Shown: one piece after another, positions 1 to 7,250 of the stretch | Numbering within the stretch: the first letter of the stretch is position 1 | How the letters are laid out: the number at the start of each line of letters is the position of its first letter | Virus record (IMG/VR): IMGVR_UViG_3300032070_000001 | Coordinates: 1-12,182 of that record | Strand: one strand, 5' to 3' | From: a virus | Taxonomy: Duplodnaviria; Heunggongvirae; Uroviricota; Caudoviricetes | DNA: 12,182 bases | The notes under the pieces: model-generated | What the model saw: the letters and a program-made list of their open reading frames with translations, nothing else | The model's database searches: none | Told to the model about the DNA's origin: nothing | Made by a program: the position numbers and the translations under genes

Positions 1-650
1 ACGATGGACTCGCCGGGCGGCCCGACGATGGATTCGCCGAGATCGCCTTTGTCGCCTTTGTCGCCTTTGTCGCCTTTGTCGCCTTTGTCGCCTTTGTCAC
101 CCTTCGGGCCGACGATGGACTCGCCGGGCGGGCCGACGATGGACTCGCCGGGCGGGCCGACAATGGATTCGCCGGGGTCGCCTTTGTCGCCCTTCGGGCC
201 GACGATGGACTCGCCGGGCGGGCCGACGATGGACTCGCCGGGCGGGCCGACAATGGATTCGCCGGGGTCGCCTTTGTCGCCCTTGTCGCCCTTGTTGCCC
301 TTATCACCCTTGTCGCCCTTCGGGCCGACGATGGACTTGCCGGGTGGCCCGATGATGGACTCGCCGAGATCGCCCTTGTCACCCTTCGGGCCGACGATGG
401 ACTCGCCGAGATCGCCCTTGTCACCCTTGTCGCCCTTGTCGCCCTTGTCGCCCTTGTCGCCCTTGTCGCCCTTGTCGCCTCTGTCACCCTTCGGGCCAAC
501 GACGGACTCGCCGGGCGGCCCGACGATAGACTCGCCTGTTTCACCCTTCGGGCCAACGATGGACTCACCTGTTTCACCCTTCGGGCCAACGATGGACTCG
601 CCTGGGTCGCCTTTGTCACCCTTGTCGCCCTTCGGGCCGACGATGGATTC
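1..650 (-). repeat. Coding tandem repeats: 9-nt GGCGACAAG (GDK) runs and ~24-nt GGCGAGTCCATCGTCGGCCCGCCC/AAG (GESIVGPP/K) units
   Basis: Directly visible on the plus strand as repeated gtcgccctt(t) and gacgatggactcgccgggcgg. Confidence 0.95.
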
Positions 651-875
651 GCTGTCGTCGCTCTTCAGGCCAGGCGGCCCCGGTTGCCGGGTCAATTCGT
701 TGATTTGCGCTTCGACTCGGCAAACGAAGCTATGCAAGTCAAGGACGCCGTTTTCGACAGCAACAAGTTCTGTCGCGACGAAGTGTAGATCGGCAGGGGT
801 GGGTGGGCCGGGAATACCGGTCTCCAGAGTCGAGGGCCAGATGCCATTCCAAACTTGTTGCGGGAAGTGACTCAT
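1..875 (-). CDS. Collagen-like (Gly-X-Y repeat) protein, runs off the left edge of the window; possible phage tail fibre or surface protein
   Basis: ATG at 875 overlaps the TGA of the upstream gene (ATGA). The frame reads MSHFPQQVWNGIWPSTLETG...INELTRQPGPPGLKSDDSESIVGPKGDKGDKGDPGESIVGPKGETGESIVGPPGES... with no stop seen before base 1. It is missing from the ORF track because it has no stop; the listed plus-strand 288-aa ORF is its antisense. Confidence 0.85.
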   Translation of the reverse strand, partial: MSHFPQQVWNGIWPSTLETGIPGPPTPADLHFVATELVAVENGVLDLHSFVCRVEAQINELTRQPGPPGLKSDDSESIVGPKGDKGDKGDPGESIVGPKGETGESIVGPKGETGESIVGPPGESVVGPKGDRGDKGDKGDKGDKGDKGDKGDKGDLGESIVGPKGDKGDLGESIIGPPGKSIVGPKGDKGDKGNKGDKGDKGDPGESIVGPPGESIVGPPGESIVGPKGDKGDPGESIVGPPGESIVGPPGESIVGPKGDKGDKGDKGDKGDKGDKGDLGESIVGPPGESI

Positions 876-2819: not shown

Positions 2820-4415
2820 TCAGTTTCGCGCGAAGTCAGCCATCACGGCGGGACATGAGGCGTCGAAGCCCACCACGTCCAACATCCCAGGGTCACTGGA
2901 GTCGGCGATGGTGAACTCGGTGGCCGTCATGCCGACGACGATCAGCTTGGCGTTGATCCCGGTCGTCTTGCGGTACTGGACGAGGGCCTGGGAGGGGTGA
3001 ATCTGACCGGCCCAAGTCTCGTTGTCCGTATAAACGACGAACGCATCCACCTCCAGTTGGTTTTGGAGGGCGTAGATCATGGGCTGAGCGCAATCCGTGC
3101 GGCCGTAGTCGATGCAGTCGATCTTCTCGATCACGCTGTCAAGCCGGCTGCAACGGGAGATGTTGATGGGCACCAGCACGTGCGAAAAGCCAATCAAGTG
3201 GGTCTGGGGCTCGCTCTTGAGAGTCACCATTGCCATGCAGGCTGACGCCTTGCGGGCGTCCAGACCCGTGTTGGCGAGATACTGGCACGTCATAGACCCG
3301 GACACGTCCAGGGCCAGCAGGTGCCGCTTGCCGCTGGGCTCCACGGCGTCGAAAGCCAGGTAGAAGGCGTCTTCCAGGGCGTCTCGGATTTGGGCCACCG
3401 GGTCCCAGGTCAGGCTTCCCTTGAGGCCGTGGCCTCTGCCGTAGGTGTCCAGGGCCAGCAGGACGGAGAGCGGATGGACTCGGGCGGCCTTGAGCCGGGC
3501 CAGGTCCCGCAGGGTCTCGCAGGCGGCTTGGGTTCCCCGAGAGAGGGGCTTGAGCAGCCCGATGCTGGTCATCTTTCCTAGGTTGCGGATCAAGGCCGTG
3601 GGCGGCAGGTTCGGCAGCAGGGCCTCCCAGACCGCCGGACTACCCAGGTGCGTGTTGGGGACGTGCTCCAGGGTCAAACCGTAGGTGCCGATCAAGCCGA
3701 TCAGTTCCTTCTCGGTCACGTTTGGCTGATTGGCGGCCTCAAAACCGATGATGATGTCAGGCACGCCACCAATGATCGTGTCGAAGGTTGCGCCTTTGAC
3801 GATGTAGCGATAGAGGGCGTTGTGATCGGCATCGGCTGCCGTGGGGTGGCTTAGCCGCAGAGCATCCCGATGGGTGTAGCCCACGCGGTTGCGGTACTTG
3901 GTCACCTGGTAGGCCAGCTTCTCCACCGATTTGTCGTTGTACCAGGCGGCCACGGCCTCGCGGAGTCCACGACCCCAGCCGCGCAGTTCCTTGCAGTTGG
4001 CGAGGAACTGAAACAGATGGGTGCCGATGCGGCAAACGCGGGGCAAAGCAACCAGGGCCAGATTTCGGGCGGCGTTATTCCCTCGGCTGGCCACGAGTGC
4101 CAAGGCAAAAATCGCCGGGTCGTTTTTGGGAGCGCGGCCTGCCTCGCTCACCTGGCAGATCGTCTCCACGGTGCGAGCGGGGTCTTCCTCGGCACAAGCC
4201 GTGATGCAAGTGGCGTTCTCTTGAGTCAGCTTCCGCTCGCCGACGTAGTAGGTGCCGCCTTCGGAACCGAGGATCAAGAAGCGCTGCAACCGGCCCCAGT
4301 CGTCGAGAACGTAGCTGTAACCCCCGGCATGGTTTTCTTGCTGACTGGTGCCGGGGATCGGCTCACTCTGCGGGGTCTGACATCGGGAGACGTGACGGGC
4401 GTAAGTGCGACTCAT
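2820..4415 (-). CDS. rsr: Ro60/Rsr-family TROVE-domain RNA-binding protein with a C-terminal vWA domain, 531 aa
   Basis: NHAGGYSY...RLQRFLILGSEGGTYY, PKNDPAIFALA, THLFQF, KYRNRVGYTHRDALRLSHP and LIRNLGKMT match Ro60 motifs. The vWA MIDAS motif is ALDVSGSM, followed by AFVVYTDNETW and MLDVVGFD. GGAG SD. Confidence 0.95.
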   Translation of the reverse strand: MSRTYARHVSRCQTPQSEPIPGTSQQENHAGGYSYVLDDWGRLQRFLILGSEGGTYYVGERKLTQENATCITACAEEDPARTVETICQVSEAGRAPKNDPAIFALALVASRGNNAARNLALVALPRVCRIGTHLFQFLANCKELRGWGRGLREAVAAWYNDKSVEKLAYQVTKYRNRVGYTHRDALRLSHPTAADADHNALYRYIVKGATFDTIIGGVPDIIIGFEAANQPNVTEKELIGLIGTYGLTLEHVPNTHLGSPAVWEALLPNLPPTALIRNLGKMTSIGLLKPLSRGTQAACETLRDLARLKAARVHPLSVLLALDTYGRGHGLKGSLTWDPVAQIRDALEDAFYLAFDAVEPSGKRHLLALDVSGSMTCQYLANTGLDARKASACMAMVTLKSEPQTHLIGFSHVLVPINISRCSRLDSVIEKIDCIDYGRTDCAQPMIYALQNQLEVDAFVVYTDNETWAGQIHPSQALVQYRKTTGINAKLIVVGMTATEFTIADSSDPGMLDVVGFDASCPAVMADFARN

Positions 4416-4432
4416 GGTGCAAACTCCAAAAG

Positions 4433-4492
4433 TTAGGCAAGGTGTTGTGACTGGGCGAATCGTAGAAGGATAACCCAGTCACTTCGGCCCAA
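4433..4492 (-). ncRNA. Y RNA-like small RNA, copy A
   Basis: TTGGGC-C-GAAG TGACTGGGTTATCC...GCCCAGTCAC AACAC CTTGCCTAA. It has a lower stem with a bulged C, a perfect 9-bp upper stem GTGACTGGG/CCCAGTCAC and a following TTTT, and ends 17 nt before the Ro60 ATG. Confidence 0.75.
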
Positions 4493-4511
4493 ACGTGAAA
4501 CGCTTCAAAAT

Positions 4512-4569
4512 CGGGCAAGGTGTGCCGATGGGTGAAATCTTAACAGGATAACCCAAGGGCTTCGGCCCG
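4512..4569 (-). ncRNA. Y RNA-like small RNA, copy B
   Basis: CGGGC-C-GAAG CCCTTGGGTTATCC...ACCCATCGGC ACAC CTTGCCCG then ATTTT. Same fold as copy A with a different upper-stem sequence. Confidence 0.72.
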
Positions 4570-4572
4570 GAG

Positions 4573-4660
4573 GCACGTCGATAGGACTCGAACCTACGAC
4601 TTCAGGTTTCCTTGATAACGCTGGTTTACCTGCGCTCTAGCCAACTGAGCTACGACGTGC
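4573..4660 (-). ncRNA. tRNA-like RNA with a 20-nt anticodon loop
   Basis: GCACGTCG TA GCTC AGTTGGCTA GAGC G CAGGT [AAACCAGCGTTATCAAGGAA] ACCTG AAGTC GTAGG TTCGAGT CCTAT CGACGTGC. The D and T arms are canonical, the acceptor stem is 8 bp, there is no 7-nt anticodon loop and no CCA. Confidence 0.8.
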
Positions 4661-4673
4661 ATTTGGTTGTTAA

Positions 4674-4895
4674 TCAGGCAGTGTACCGCGTGATGCCGTC
4701 CCGCACTGCCTTGCCGCGAAGTGTCTTGATCTTCATGCCTTTCGCGCGAAGATGACTGAGTTGGACAGTCAAATTGGCGCGCTTGACCTTGCGACGAGTC
4801 TTCTTGCCGACTTATTCGACAAGTTGAGTCATTGTGTACCGCCGGCCGCTGCGAAGAACGGCCTTCAATGCTTCTTGCTGATTCGGTCGCGTCAT
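4674..4895 (-). pseudogene. Small basic, winged-HTH-like protein interrupted by an in-frame TAA at codon 28
   Basis: AGGA SD and ATG at 4895: MTRPNQQEALKAVLRSGRRYTMTQLVE*VGKKTRRKVKRANLTVQLSHLRAKGMKIKTLRGKAVRDGITRYTA*. TAA at 4814-4812; the frame stays protein-like on both sides. The fold call is by eye. Confidence 0.55.
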
Positions 4896-4942
4896 GGGTT
4901 CTTCCTAAATGGTTGAGTGGAAACAAACGGACAAGTTTTCAG

Positions 4943-5019
4943 TGGACCCTGCCGGGACTCGAACCCGGATCAGTCGTCGGCAAAGCCAAAGCTGTGCTGC
5001 CATTACACCACAGAGTCCA
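4943..5019 (-). ncRNA. tRNA-like RNA (D arm resembles tRNA-Gln) with a malformed anticodon arm
   Basis: TGGACTCTG TG GTGT AATGGCA GCAC AGCTTTGGCTTTGCCGACGACTGAT CCGGG TTCGAGT CCCGG CAGGGTCCA. The T arm is perfect, but no 5-bp stem with a 7-nt loop can be drawn in the anticodon region (best is TTGGC-TTT-GCCGA). Confidence 0.72.
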
Positions 5020-5024
5020 TAAAG

Positions 5025-5086
5025 CGCGGGCAAGGGTATGCCAGTGGGTAAACTGATGATAGGTAACCCATCGACTTTGGCCCGCG
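5025..5086 (-). ncRNA. Y RNA-like small RNA, copy C
   Basis: CGCGGGC-C-AAAG TCGATGGGTTACC...ACCCACTGGC ATACC CTTGCCCGCG then CTTT. It has a 7-bp terminal stem, a bulged C, and a G-to-A change that keeps pairing with U. Confidence 0.7.
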
Positions 5087-5101
5087 TGTTTCACGGTCTT
5101 G

Positions 5102-5896: not shown

Positions 5897-5998
5897 GGTA
5901 GTCTTACTAGGGAATCTCAGGTGGTCTGCAACCTCTGCTGTCAAGGGCAATTGCGGGTTTGTGGTGGTCTTACTAGGGAATCTCAGGTGGTCTGCAAC
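5897..5998 (-). CRISPR. CRISPR-like mini-array: two 36-nt repeats and one 30-nt spacer
   Basis: Minus-strand repeats GTTGCAGACCACCTGAGATTCCCTAGTAAGAC(C/T)ACC at 5998-5963 and 5932-5897 (35/36 identical; 37 nt if the shared flanking A is included). Spacer ACAAACCCGCAATTGCCCTTGACAGCAGAG at 5962-5933. With only two repeats, this is below the usual array threshold. Confidence 0.72.
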
Positions 5999-7097
5999 AG
6001 GTTGGTTGTAACTTGTCGCTGGCCTTCATGTTCCAGTGTTTTGCTGGCATTAAAATCGCGGTCGTGGACCGTTCCGCAACCTGGGCACGTCCATTTTCCT
6101 CAAAACCCAAGGTTGTGTTCTTGAATCCACAGAGATGACACGTCTTGCTTGAAGGAAAGTAGGGGTCGGCCTTGAGAAGTTGTTTCCCACGGTCGTGCAA
6201 CTTGTACTCAAGGCACTGACGAAAATGGCCATGTCCAACATCCGTGAGCGACTTGGCAAACCGGCCCTGTTGTTGGGCTTTCAGGGAGTGGGACTCGATG
6301 CACACTGCGTCGTACTTCTCGGCCACTTGCTTCGAGATGAAGTGCGAAAAGTGCTTGCGCCGGTTGGCGATACCGGCATGAATCTTAGCGATGCGAGCCA
6401 CTGTCTGTTTGCGGCGATTGCTTCCTTTCTTTTGGCGGGCCAACTTGCGCTGCCAATGGGCTAGTTTGCGGGCGTATTGACATGTCCACCGGGGGTTAGC
6501 AATCACCCTTTCATCGCTGATGACTGCATACTTGCGGAAACCTGTGTCGAGGCCAACGAGGTTGATTGGTGCAACAGGTGGCGGTGTCGGTAAATCCTTC
6601 TTAACAGTGAAACTCGCATACCAACGGTTTGCGACTCGTTTGATTCGGACAGCGGCACCGATCTTACCAGTTGCCGGTAAGTCGCGGGCGAGTTTCAGCC
6701 GCATCTTAGCAGCAATCAATCGTCGGCCTTTTAGTCGGCAGTGTTCTGGAATCAAGAAGCCTTGGTTGCTATCCTCGGGTCGCTTGCGCCGAGGGAAACC
6801 GGCTTTAACTTTACCTTGTTTCACTCGCTTGAAGAATGCGTTCATAGCGGTCCTCAAGTCACGAAGGGCGGCACGAACGGTATGGCTGTTTAGAGTCTGC
6901 ATCCCTTCCGTCTTGTGCAGTGAGACCGATTCTCGGCTAAGTCGATTCCAATCCAATTTCTCCTTGGCTTTGTGCCATTGCTGGATGGTTGCTAATCCCC
7001 AATTCCATACGCGGCGACGTGCGAATAGATACTGGCGCAACAAGGCCGTTTGTATTGGCGTCGGAAACAACCGGATTGTGTATTTGCGAGTGCTCAT
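5983..7097 (-). CDS. tnpB: TnpB-family / compact type V-like RNA-guided RuvC nuclease, ~371 aa once a 1-nt frameshift at 6094-6097 is repaired
   Basis: N-terminal YTIRLFPT, GFPRRK, RWYASFTV, RuvC-I VGLDTG, RuvC-II VCIES and SSKTCHLCG. The canonical end KWTCPGCGTVHDRDFNASKTL lies in the -1 frame and stops at TGA 5985-5983 inside the first repeat. The likely start is ATG 7097; the track starts at TTG 7106. Confidence 0.9.
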
Positions 7098-7107
7098 TGT
7101 TTTCAAG

Positions 7108-7206
7108 GGGCGGGGTGACGTGGTTTCACGTCACCCGCCCTCCCTAGTAATTGACGTTTCGCTGGGCGTCACCACCCGCCTTGCGGCGGATTGACACACG
7201 CCCTCC
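7108..7206 (-). ncRNA. Candidate tracrRNA-like structured RNA upstream of tnpB
   Basis: Minus strand contains the hairpin CCGCC-GCAA-GGCGG (7189-7176) and GGTGGT (7176-7171), then a small GACG/CGTC hairpin. These are followed by TTACTAGGGA (7150-7141) and a 14-bp hairpin with one bulge (7140-7108). The two unpaired blocks complement the repeat 3' part TCCCTAGTAA-G-ACCACC. The RNA ends are unknown. Confidence 0.6.
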
Positions 7207-7250
7207 ACGTCCGTTTTAAGAGTCCGAACAACCTTCGGCCTCTTCGTTTG

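What the first reader, a model, noticed from the sequence alone, without database searches (positions are those of the whole stretch)
7141..7176. Split anti-repeat with a wobble-tolerated repeat variant
Seen: the repeat 3' end 5'-UCCCUAGUAA-G-ACCACC-3' can pair antiparallel with 5'-GGUGGU-[20 nt incl. hairpin]-UUACUAGGGA-3' upstream of tnpB, giving 10 bp plus up to 6 bp around a three-way junction. The only difference between the two repeats (ACCACC vs ACUACC) turns a G-C into G-U and keeps pairing. A rough estimate for a chance 10-mer match between the repeat and this ~140-nt intergenic region is about 1%, before counting the second block. Established: Cas12f and Cas12k guides use two separate repeat:anti-repeat duplexes. 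The GCAA tetraloop supports the minus strand as the transcribed one.
Basis: partly seen in the sequence, partly recalled or inferred. Interest (0 to 1): 0.75.

Follow-up and report, generated by a model that had tools for sequence, protein, structure and literature searches.

The report
Phage TnpB tracrRNA anti-repeat, confirmed
The 10-base match is real: it is the anti-repeat at the end of a conserved small RNA (a tracrRNA) that pairs with the repeats of a tiny CRISPR-like array behind a phage TnpB nuclease gene, a recently described kind of transposon-to-CRISPR intermediate, although the nuclease gene in this phage is broken.

Summary
Minus-strand UUACUAGGGA (7150-7141) is a perfect complement of UCCCUAGUAA in both 36-nt repeats (5998-5963, 5932-5897). 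Dinucleotide shuffles give a match this long 0.12% of the time.

Homologous loci decide the case. This TnpB clade comes only from phage-like metagenome contigs. In 11 distinct repeat/anti-repeat pairs the 10-mer differs, yet 107 of 110 positions stay paired. Eight of ten positions show compensatory changes, and 0 of 100,000 permutations match this.

The anti-repeat ends a 102-nt structured RNA (7242-7141). In relatives this RNA has its own sigma-70 promoter and a terminator. Together with the repeat it matches the solved ISDra2 TnpB omega-RNA, cut at the stem-4 loop. It is therefore a tracrRNA:crRNA pair of the TranC / type V-U kind.

The second block is only partly supported. The 6-bp register GGUGGU:ACCACC occurs only in this window and overlaps a covariation-supported hairpin. 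A free GGUG, or the invariant GGUUG loop of the first hairpin, could pair instead.

The C/U repeat variant recurs in four other arrays.

The nuclease gene has a 1-nt frameshift, seen in three sediment runs. No spacer targets were found and no RNA data were available. I class it as a new member of a known kind.

The parts
7141..7150 (-). Anti-repeat (UUACUAGGGA), the 3' end of the tracrRNA scaffold. It pairs with nt -17 to -8 of each repeat.
   Evidence: Perfect 10-nt complement (I6/I7). Chance 0.12%. 107 of 110 cells paired across 11 distinct loci, with compensatory changes at 8 of 10 positions. It is the minimum-free-energy intermolecular duplex.
7141..7242 (-). tracrRNA scaffold, 102 nt. It comprises hairpin H1 (7242-7220, loop GGUUG at 7233-7229), stem A (7211-7207 with 7157-7153), stem B (7203-7198 with 7169-7164), hairpin C with a GCAA loop (7191-7174), a free GGUG (7173-7170) and the anti-repeat.
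   Evidence: RNAalifold on 13 loci gives 25 pairs, 17 with compensatory changes. 97.1% of cells are paired against 78% in shuffles and 34-52% when slid. Covariance model R1 finds exactly one copy per locus and one in the 90.7-kb phage record.
7171..7176 (-). Positions 7176-7174 belong to the base of hairpin C; only 7173-7170 (GGUG) is unpaired in the consensus structure.
   Evidence: The 6-bp register is specific to this window.
7108..7140 (-). GC-rich hairpin directly after the anti-repeat, at the terminator position. The U-tract is weak in this window.
   Evidence: (I12, I3). The equivalent hairpin plus T-run is scored as a terminator in L008 and is visible in the other loci.
5973..7097 (-). 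tnpB-like gene (HTH_OrfB_IS605, OrfB_IS605/RuvC and TNB zinc-ribbon domains). It is frameshifted at the A4 run 6097-6094, and the listed ORF 7106-5973 ends in a wrong-frame tail.
   Evidence: Pfam. Alignment with intact homologues. The closest relative, P0003, reads LGFEEKWTCP in frame. The same sequence is present in contigs of runs X1, X2 and X4.
5983..6096 (-). The displaced true C-terminal reading frame (KWTCPGCG..HDRD..LLQTT*), carrying the second CxxC and the RuvC-III Asp. Its stop codon, TGA 5985-5983, lies inside repeat 1.
   Evidence: compared.
5963..5998 (-). Repeat 1 (36 nt). It overlaps the end of the nuclease frame. The R block is 5979-5970 and the guide-adjacent ACCACC is 5968-5963.
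5933..5962 (-). Spacer (30 nt), unique in the phage record.
5897..5932 (-). Repeat 2 (the terminal repeat), with ACUACC at 5902-5897. It is followed directly by the ATG of the next ORF (5895).

Best explanation
Positions 7141-7150 are the anti-repeat of a tracrRNA gene (7242-7141, minus strand) that belongs to a phage-borne, TnpB-sized RNA-guided nuclease with a mini CRISPR-like array.

Proposed mechanism:
1. The roughly 102-nt scaffold, followed by a terminator hairpin, is made upstream of the nuclease gene.
2. The array is transcribed as the 3' extension of the nuclease mRNA. Its first repeat contains the stop codon.
3. The last 17 nt of each repeat dock on the scaffold. UCCCUAGUAA forms a 10-bp helix with the anti-repeat. 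This helix is the equivalent of stem 4 of the single-piece ISDra2 omega-RNA and of the Cas12f repeat:anti-repeat stem.
4. The guide-adjacent ACCACC forms a short pseudoknot with a conserved GGU-containing element of the scaffold.
5. The spacer that follows is the guide.

The system is therefore an omega-RNA split at its stem-4 loop into tracrRNA and crRNA, that is, the TranC / type V-U kind.

Shown here: the complementarity, its covariation, the scaffold structure, promoters and terminators in relatives, and the homology of the protein to ISDra2 TnpB.

Inferred: that both RNAs are made, how they are processed, which element partners ACCACC, and that DNA is cleaved.

In this particular phage the nuclease gene is frameshifted and the array has shrunk to two repeats, so the local copy is probably decaying or nuclease-dead.
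For: Complementarity: a 10-nt perfect complement, expected by chance in 0.12% of shuffles.

Covariation: the 10-mers differ between loci (for example GCAUCUGGUA, UCAAUUGGGA, GUAUCAAGGA) and each matches its own repeat. 107 of 110 cells are paired, against a non-cognate mean of 7.1 of 10, and 0 of 100,000 permutations reach this.

Scaffold: structure with 17 of 25 compensatory pairs, 0 of 500 shuffles reaching it, and one copy per locus.

Transcription signals in relatives: TTGACA-16-TATACT promoters (11 of 12 matches) 8 nt before the scaffold, and a terminator right after the anti-repeat.

Arrays: 2-6 repeats spaced about 66 nt, overlapping the ORF end, in L004, L008, L014, L016, L020, L021 and L022.

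Solo units: promoter-driven units in L008 and L012 keep exactly the 17-18 nt of the repeat that dock on the scaffold, followed by a spacer.

Protein: the closest solved structure is ISDra2 TnpB (E 1e-39). Its omega-RNA has a 10-bp stem 4 at -30 to -7 and a pseudoknot at -6 to -2 (PMC10097598). The geometry here is the same: helix at -17 to -8 and ACCACC at -6 to -1.

Strand: the non-Watson-Crick cells in L018 and L008 are G-U on this strand.
Against: There are no expression data. No RNA run was available and only metagenome contigs hold the sequence.

No sigma-70-like promoter was found before the scaffold in this window, and the U-tract after the hairpin is weak.

No protospacer or TAM was found for any spacer, and there is no adaptation module.

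The nuclease here lacks RuvC-III in frame.

Both candidate pseudoknot partners are invariant within the clade, so covariation cannot decide between them.
Confidence: 0.85

Rival explanations
1. Second duplex, loop model. The guide-adjacent ACCACC pairs with the invariant GGUUG loop of hairpin H1 (7233-7229), forming the pseudoknot common to type V guides. The C/U position (-4) faces U and is unpaired.
For: In ISDra2 the 5' strand of the pseudoknot lies in the loop of stem 1, and only 3 Watson-Crick pairs form. H1 occupies the same position in the stem order. The loop is invariant in 13 of 13 loci and in the sister clade L025. The guide-adjacent sequence in L025 is CAACC, a perfect 5-bp complement of GGUUG. 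Position -4 is the only freely varying position (C, U or A).
Against: Only 3 contiguous pairs, plus 1 after a mismatch, form in this clade. The loop has 5-7 nt, much shorter than the 19-nt loop of ISDra2. No covariation test is possible within the clade.
Confidence: 0.45
2. Second duplex, junction model. The free GGUG (7173-7170), between hairpin C and stem B, pairs with CACC (-4 to -1). ACUACC then gives a terminal G-U pair.
For: GGU is invariant in 13 of 13 loci and GGUG is present in 11 of 13. Four contiguous pairs are possible in 10 of 12 loci with known repeats. C-to-U at -4 recurs in the terminal repeats of L014 and L008 and in most repeats of L021 and L022, which fits G-U tolerance.
Against: L014 and L018 lack hairpin C and read GGUC there. 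The sister clade L025 has no GGU at this junction. If all four C's were G-paired, C-to-U would be expected at other positions too, and it is not seen. The written 6-bp register would have to open three covariation-supported pairs of hairpin C.
Confidence: 0.25
3. The complementarity acts in cis within one long transcript (leader - tnpB - array). It would, for example, regulate translation or processing of the nuclease mRNA, rather than form a separate tracrRNA.
For: In this window no promoter was detected before the scaffold and the terminator U-tract is weak. The scaffold lies only about 45 nt before the start codon.
Against: Relatives have a strong promoter and terminator bounding the scaffold. 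Several repeats, and solo promoter-driven half-repeats, all keep the docking sequence. The architecture matches a solved guide RNA.
Confidence: 0.07
4. The match is a DNA-level inverted repeat (ends of a mobile element or a recombination site), or simply chance.
For: Inverted repeats at element ends also co-vary. TnpB genes are normally carried by transposons.
Against: The 10-mer is internal to a structured, promoter- and terminator-bounded RNA, not at an element boundary. It is matched by tandem repeats separated by spacers. The mismatches are G-U on the sense strand only. No tnpA is present in the window or in any locus, and there is a single copy in the genome. Chance is 0.12% before covariation is counted.
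Confidence: 0.03

Closest known systems
TranC (transposon-CRISPR intermediates; Jin et al., Cell 2025, cited in PMC13565253 and bioRxiv 10.64898/2026.03.27.714800), including LaTranC (PDB 9JFO) and the phage-borne CauTranC9
   Same: A TnpB-sized effector next to a short array, with no cas1/cas2. The guide is split into tracrRNA plus crRNA derived from the omega/reRNA. Some members are encoded by Caudoviricetes.
   Different: The protein is far closer to ISDra2 TnpB (E 1e-39) than to LaTranC (E 8e-8). The tracrRNA gene lies upstream of the effector, not between effector and array. The first repeat contains the stop codon. Repeats are 36 nt and proteins are mostly 371-391 aa, versus 38 bp and about 414 aa reported for clade 9. 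Whether this clade is one of the published numbered clades could not be checked, because the paper and its tables are not held.
ISDra2 TnpB omega-RNA (PDB 8H1J / 8BF8; PMC10097598)
   Same: Closest solved protein. The order of RNA elements is the same: 5' hairpin, enclosing stems, a dispensable inner hairpin, a 10-bp guide-proximal stem, a roughly 6-nt pseudoknot strand, then the guide.
   Different: In ISDra2 the RNA is one piece overlapping the 3' end of tnpB, and stem 4 is closed by a UUUA loop. Here the RNA is cut at that loop, the 5' part is an independent gene upstream, and the 3' part is repeated as an array. No tnpA or transposon ends are present.
Cas12f (type V-F) tracrRNA:crRNA
   Same: Two separate repeat:anti-repeat contacts, a stem and a guide-adjacent pseudoknot, as stated in PMC10097598. 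The repeats are non-palindromic.
   Different: Cas12f is larger, acts as a dimer and usually has cas1/2/4. Its tracrRNA lies between the cas genes and the array.
Cas12r of Thermus Lalka phages (bioRxiv 10.64898/2026.04.20.719267)
   Same: A phage-encoded TnpB-derived nuclease followed by a mini array, without adaptation genes.
   Different: Cas12r is 564 aa, has 29-bp repeats and needs no tracrRNA.

Membership tests
TnpB (IS200/IS605 OrfB) protein family | HTH_OrfB_IS605 + OrfB_IS605 (RuvC) + zinc-ribbon TNB domains | tested here: met
   Pfam E-values 1.8e-11, 1.8e-16 and 1.2e-9. ISDra2 TnpB matches at E 1e-39 over residues 6-331.
TnpB (IS200/IS605 OrfB) protein family | Complete RuvC D-E-D triad and second CxxC in one reading frame | tested here: not met
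   The conserved columns for the first Asp (D187) and the Glu (E271) are present, but the RuvC-III Asp and the second CxxC lie in the -1 frame after the A4 run at 6097-6094. The frameshift is present in three runs. Homologues are intact.
TnpB as part of an IS200/IS605 or IS607 transposon | Adjacent tnpA, transposon ends, multiple copies | tested here: not met
   No transposase domain in the window ORFs or in the flanks of any locus. Single copy in the 90.7-kb record.
TranC / type V-U (TnpB-derived effector with array and split guide) | TnpB-like effector adjacent to direct repeats separated by unique spacers | tested here: met
   Two repeats here. Two to six repeats, about 66 nt start to start, in seven homologous loci.
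TranC / type V-U (TnpB-derived effector with array and split guide) | Separate tracrRNA whose anti-repeat pairs with the repeat | tested here: met
   Covariation, scaffold structure, promoter and terminator in relatives. Expression itself was not tested.
TranC / type V-U (TnpB-derived effector with array and split guide) | RNA-guided DNA cleavage that needs both RNAs; a defined TAM/PAM | not testable with these tools
   No protospacers were found, so no TAM could be inferred.
TranC / type V-U (TnpB-derived effector with array and split guide) | Placement in a published numbered TranC clade | not testable with these tools
   The Cell 2025 paper and the preprint's sequence tables are not held.
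Cas12f-type dual repeat:anti-repeat guide | Guide-adjacent repeat bases form a pseudoknot with the tracrRNA (R:AR-1) | tested here: inconclusive
   There are two candidate partners, both invariant within the clade. Comparison with the sister clade favours the H1 loop.
Adaptive CRISPR-Cas system | cas1/cas2 adaptation module; spacer turnover | tested here: not met
   No cas genes in any flank. L021 and L022 share a diverged homologous first spacer, which indicates vertical inheritance.

The most novel reading that the evidence does not exclude
This clade may preserve successive stages of omega-RNA splitting in one family:
- Members with a trans-encoded scaffold gene upstream and only one 'repeat' at the ORF end (L010, L018). 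These would be TnpBs with a two-piece omega-RNA and no array.
- Members with added promoter-driven half-repeat-spacer units (L008, L012).
- Members with true arrays.
- A sister clade with the order tracr-array-gene (L025).

If so, relocation of the scaffold to a separate upstream gene came before array formation. It could also explain why tracrRNAs were not found for some TranC clades when only the effector-to-array interval was searched.

A further possibility is that the frameshifted protein here still binds the guide and acts as a nuclease-dead regulator.
Probability: 0.3. Interest if true: 0.7.

Novelty: new member of a known kind. Interest (0 to 1): 0.55.

Why it matters
The work gives a covariation-proven tracrRNA, with exact boundaries, structure and docking rules, for an uncharacterised and very small family of phage-borne RNA-guided nucleases (about 371-391 aa). 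A single-guide RNA can be designed directly by closing the 10-bp helix with a tetraloop.

A practical lesson follows: tracrRNA genes of such systems can lie upstream of the effector. The general principle, however, was published in 2025. The local copy is broken, and neither activity nor targets are known.

Tried and rejected
Searches for more loci that gave little or nothing:
- Close relatives in IMG/VR, by protein or alignment and by the repeat: none.
- tracrRNA core patterns in viral contigs and genome contigs: none. The metagenome scan gave only 5 loci, so most loci came from exact-protein look-ups.
- Rfam: no family for the scaffold or repeats.

Protospacers:
- The window spacer matches only itself in the phage record.
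- There are only chance-level hits in INPHARED phages.
- There are no cross-matches of 28 spacers to the phage genome or to any fetched locus, apart from the shared L021/L022 spacer.
- Three 20-mers gave nothing in viral contigs.

Expression: no RNA holder is listed for this stretch.

RNAcofold cannot show the second duplex, because it would be a pseudoknot.

A third candidate partner for ACCACC, the GUGG between stems A and B, was rejected because L020 reads GUCG there while its repeat is unchanged.

Programmed -1 frameshifting at GAG GAA AAU was considered and set aside. There is no slippery heptamer, and the closest relative simply has one more A.

The Cell 2025 TranC paper and the preprint's supplementary tables are not held.

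Full report
**What is in the window**

The window is the first 12 kb of a 90.7-kb IMG/VR virus record. Earlier notes of this scan call it a Planctomycetes phage from sediment.

On the minus strand, a 377-aa ORF (7106-5973) carries the three TnpB domains HTH_OrfB_IS605, OrfB_IS605 and Cas12f1-like TNB. Two 36/37-nt direct repeats follow 66 nt apart, at 5998-5963 and 5932-5897. They differ at one base (ACCACC versus ACUACC) and enclose a 30-nt spacer.

Minus-strand UUACUAGGGA at 7150-7141 is a perfect complement of UCCCUAGUAA in both repeats (I6/I7). In 20,000 dinucleotide-preserving shuffles of the 144-nt intergenic region, a complement of 10 nt or more arose in 0.12%.

**The gene is broken**

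Intact homologues read ...LGFEEKWTCPxCG..HDRD.... The closest relative, P0003 (79% identical), does so in frame. In the window, the A-run at 6097-6094 has four A's. The second CxxC, the RuvC-III Asp and the true C-terminus (...LLQTT*) therefore lie in the -1 frame at 6096-5983, with the stop codon inside repeat 1.

Logan contigs from three sediment runs of different studies cover this site without any difference; one of the three may be the source of the record. The frameshift is thus a property of this phage population and not a single assembly slip.

**Relatives**

A search of 1.84 billion representative proteins found only about five clusters close to this protein. Scores then drop to generic TnpBs. 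The word-index search gave 17 close proteins, 45-79% identical.

Their contigs are phage-like, carrying Ro60, rIIB, HNH and methylase genes. No tnpA or cas1/cas2 gene is present.

In seven loci, the end of the ORF runs into an array of 2-6 repeats of 36 nt, about 66 nt start to start. L010 and L018 have a single repeat at the end of the ORF. L021 and L022 share a diverged first spacer, so the arrays are inherited rather than actively acquired.

**The upstream RNA**

All loci with enough upstream sequence carry a conserved RNA just before the gene. RNAalifold on 13 loci gives:
- hairpin H1, with an invariant GGUUG loop;
- a conserved UUAAAACG linker;
- two nested long-range stems, A and B;
- a variable inner hairpin C, with GNRA or UUCG loops, missing in L014 and L018;
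- the anti-repeat.

Seventeen of 25 pairs show compensatory changes. On a formal count, 97.1% of cells are paired, against 78% in shuffles and 34-52% when the partners are slid, and 0 of 500 shuffles reach any measure. Many pairs are G-U, so the fold exists only on this strand.

A covariance model built from the alignment finds exactly one copy per locus and one in the whole phage record.

In L008 and L012, a TTGACA-16-TATACT promoter (11 of 12 matches) ends 8 nt before H1. In L008, a scored intrinsic terminator starts at the last base of the anti-repeat. No such promoter was found in the window, and its hairpin (7140-7108) is followed by a weak U-tract.

**The decisive test: covariation of repeat and anti-repeat**

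The 10 nt after the conserved CGUCAA differ from locus to locus, and each is the complement of its own repeat:

| Locus | Anti-repeat | Repeat block |
|---|---|---|
| window | UUACUAGGGA | UCCCUAGUAA |
| L003 | UCAAUUGGGA | UCCCAAUUGA |
| L010 | GCAUCUGGUA | UACCAGAUGC |
| L016 | UCAUCAGGGA | UCCCUGAUGA |
| L020 | GCACUUGGGA | UCCCAAGUGC |
| L022 | GUAUCAAGGA | UCCUUGAUAC |

Over 11 distinct pairs:
- 107 of 110 cells pair;
- 8 of 10 positions have two or more Watson-Crick pair types;
- non-cognate combinations average 7.1 of 10;
- 0 of 100,000 permutations of the assignment reach the observed total.

Two of the five non-Watson-Crick cells are G-U on the sense strand (L018 and L008).

RNAcofold predicts the duplex in all 11 loci tested.

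There is independent support from solo units. L008 (2283-2299) and L012 (1810-1826) carry extra promoter-driven units that keep only the last 17-18 nt of the repeat, followed by a spacer. That is exactly the part that docks on the scaffold.

L012 and L013 encode the identical protein and repeat, but their sequences diverge immediately after ACCACC. This marks the boundary between scaffold and guide.

**Comparison with solved structures**

The closest solved protein is ISDra2 TnpB (8H1J/8BF8, E 1e-39). LaTranC scores only 8e-8 and Cas12n 3e-19.

The ISDra2 omega-RNA has this layout (PMC10097598):
- stem 1, whose loop holds the 5' strand of the pseudoknot;
- stem 2, enclosing stem 3;
- a 10-bp stem 4 at -30 to -7, closed by a UUUA loop;
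- a pseudoknot strand at -6 to -2;
- the guide.

That paper equates stem 4 and the pseudoknot with the two repeat:anti-repeat contacts of Cas12f.

Here the order is the same: H1, stems A/B enclosing C, a 10-bp helix at -17 to -8, ACCACC at -6 to -1, then the guide. The one difference is that the RNA is cut where ISDra2 has the stem-4 loop.

This is the 'functional RNA splitting' described for TranC systems (Jin et al. 2025, as cited in PMC13565253, PMC13639567 and bioRxiv 10.64898/2026.03.27.714800). It also fits the roughly 50 independent associations of TnpB with arrays, grouped as type V-U (PMC12669027).

**The second block**

The written 6-bp pairing GGUGGU:ACCACC exists only in this window. 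L010 has 5 bp and the other loci 3-4 bp. Its first three bases (7176-7174) form the base of hairpin C, where all five pairs of the helix show compensatory changes.

Two partners remain possible.

The junction model uses the free GGUG (7173-7170) paired with CACC:
- GGUG is present in 11 of 13 loci, and in this register ACUACC gives a terminal G-U.
- L014 and L018 read GGUC at this site.
- The sister clade lacks it.

The loop model uses the H1 loop GGUUG:
- The loop is invariant in all 13 loci.
- It sits where ISDra2 keeps its pseudoknot strand.

The sister clade was found through P0118 (37% identical). Its locus, L025, has a homologous scaffold (model R1, 44 bits, E 1e-9) followed by an array and then the gene. 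Its 12-nt anti-repeat matches its own repeat. Its guide-adjacent CAACC is a perfect 5-bp complement of GGUUG.

Position -4 is the only freely varying base of the hexamer. It is C or U in this clade and A in L025. C-to-U recurs in the terminal repeats of the window, L014 and L008, and in most repeats of L021 and L022.

Whether that is through a G-U pair or because the base is unpaired remains open. My estimates are loop 0.45, junction 0.25, and other or neither for the rest.

**Function and status**

No spacer matched the phage itself, the fetched loci, INPHARED phages or IMG/VR. Targets and the TAM are therefore unknown. Inter-phage competition, as proposed for CauTranC9 and Cas12r, is only an analogy.

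The local system looks degenerate: a frameshifted nuclease, two repeats, and a variant terminal repeat that abuts the next gene's ATG.

**Verdict**

It is wrong in detail for the intervening 'hairpin' and unproven for the second duplex. The system is a new member of a known kind (TranC / V-U, split omega-RNA). It is notable for the upstream tracrRNA gene, for the first repeat overlapping the stop codon, and for relatives that range from a single repeat to full arrays.

Noticed in passing
window 6094-6097 (minus strand): There is a one-base frameshift in the tnpB-like gene, at an A4 run where the closest relative has one more A. It removes the second CxxC and the RuvC-III Asp from the frame. 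The identical sequence occurs in contigs of three sediment runs.
   Followed up: yes
L008:2247-2330 and L012:1744-1860: These are stand-alone units: a TTGACA-16-TATACT promoter, then only the last 17-18 nt of the repeat, then a spacer. They look like ready-made crRNA genes outside the array. In L008 the unit sits upstream of the tracrRNA promoter.
   Followed up: partly
L025:64-480 (also L026): A sister TnpB clade (P0118, 37% identical) has a homologous scaffold RNA, then a 4-repeat array, then the gene (order tracr-array-gene). Its 12-nt anti-repeat AGCCCUCGUUUG matches its repeat. In isolation, the anti-repeat is predicted to fold back on hairpin H1.
   Followed up: partly
L012:1656-1700 vs L013:3359-3398: Two contigs encode the identical nuclease and repeat but diverge immediately after ACCACC. 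This is expected if that point is the scaffold/guide boundary (different spacer or different insertion site).
   Followed up: no
L008:3736-3860: Part of the L008 array has collapsed: repeats are separated by only 5-6 nt instead of 30, and the terminal repeat is degenerate.
   Followed up: no
L011:2501-2620: The database protein P0010 (420 aa) starts at an ATG inside the tracrRNA scaffold. Its N-terminal 40 residues are almost certainly a mis-called extension that reads through the RNA gene.
   Followed up: no
window 4429-5088 and 2820-4415: Three copies of a roughly 62-nt structured element lie interleaved with tRNA-Leu (4572-4659) and tRNA-Lys (4942-5018), next to a Ro60/TROVE gene. The nuclease cassette also sits near Ro60 in L013 and L014. 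Earlier notes of this scan treat these elements as Y RNAs.
   Followed up: no
window 1-870: A long imperfect 9-nt periodic repeat (GCCTTTGTC and variants) reads as collagen-like Gly-X-Y on the minus strand, at the edge of the record.
   Followed up: no
L014:2501-2620 (P0014, P0015): Two clade members carry an extra N-terminal CxxC...CxC zinc-ribbon-like extension of about 35 aa before the conserved TnpB start.
   Followed up: no
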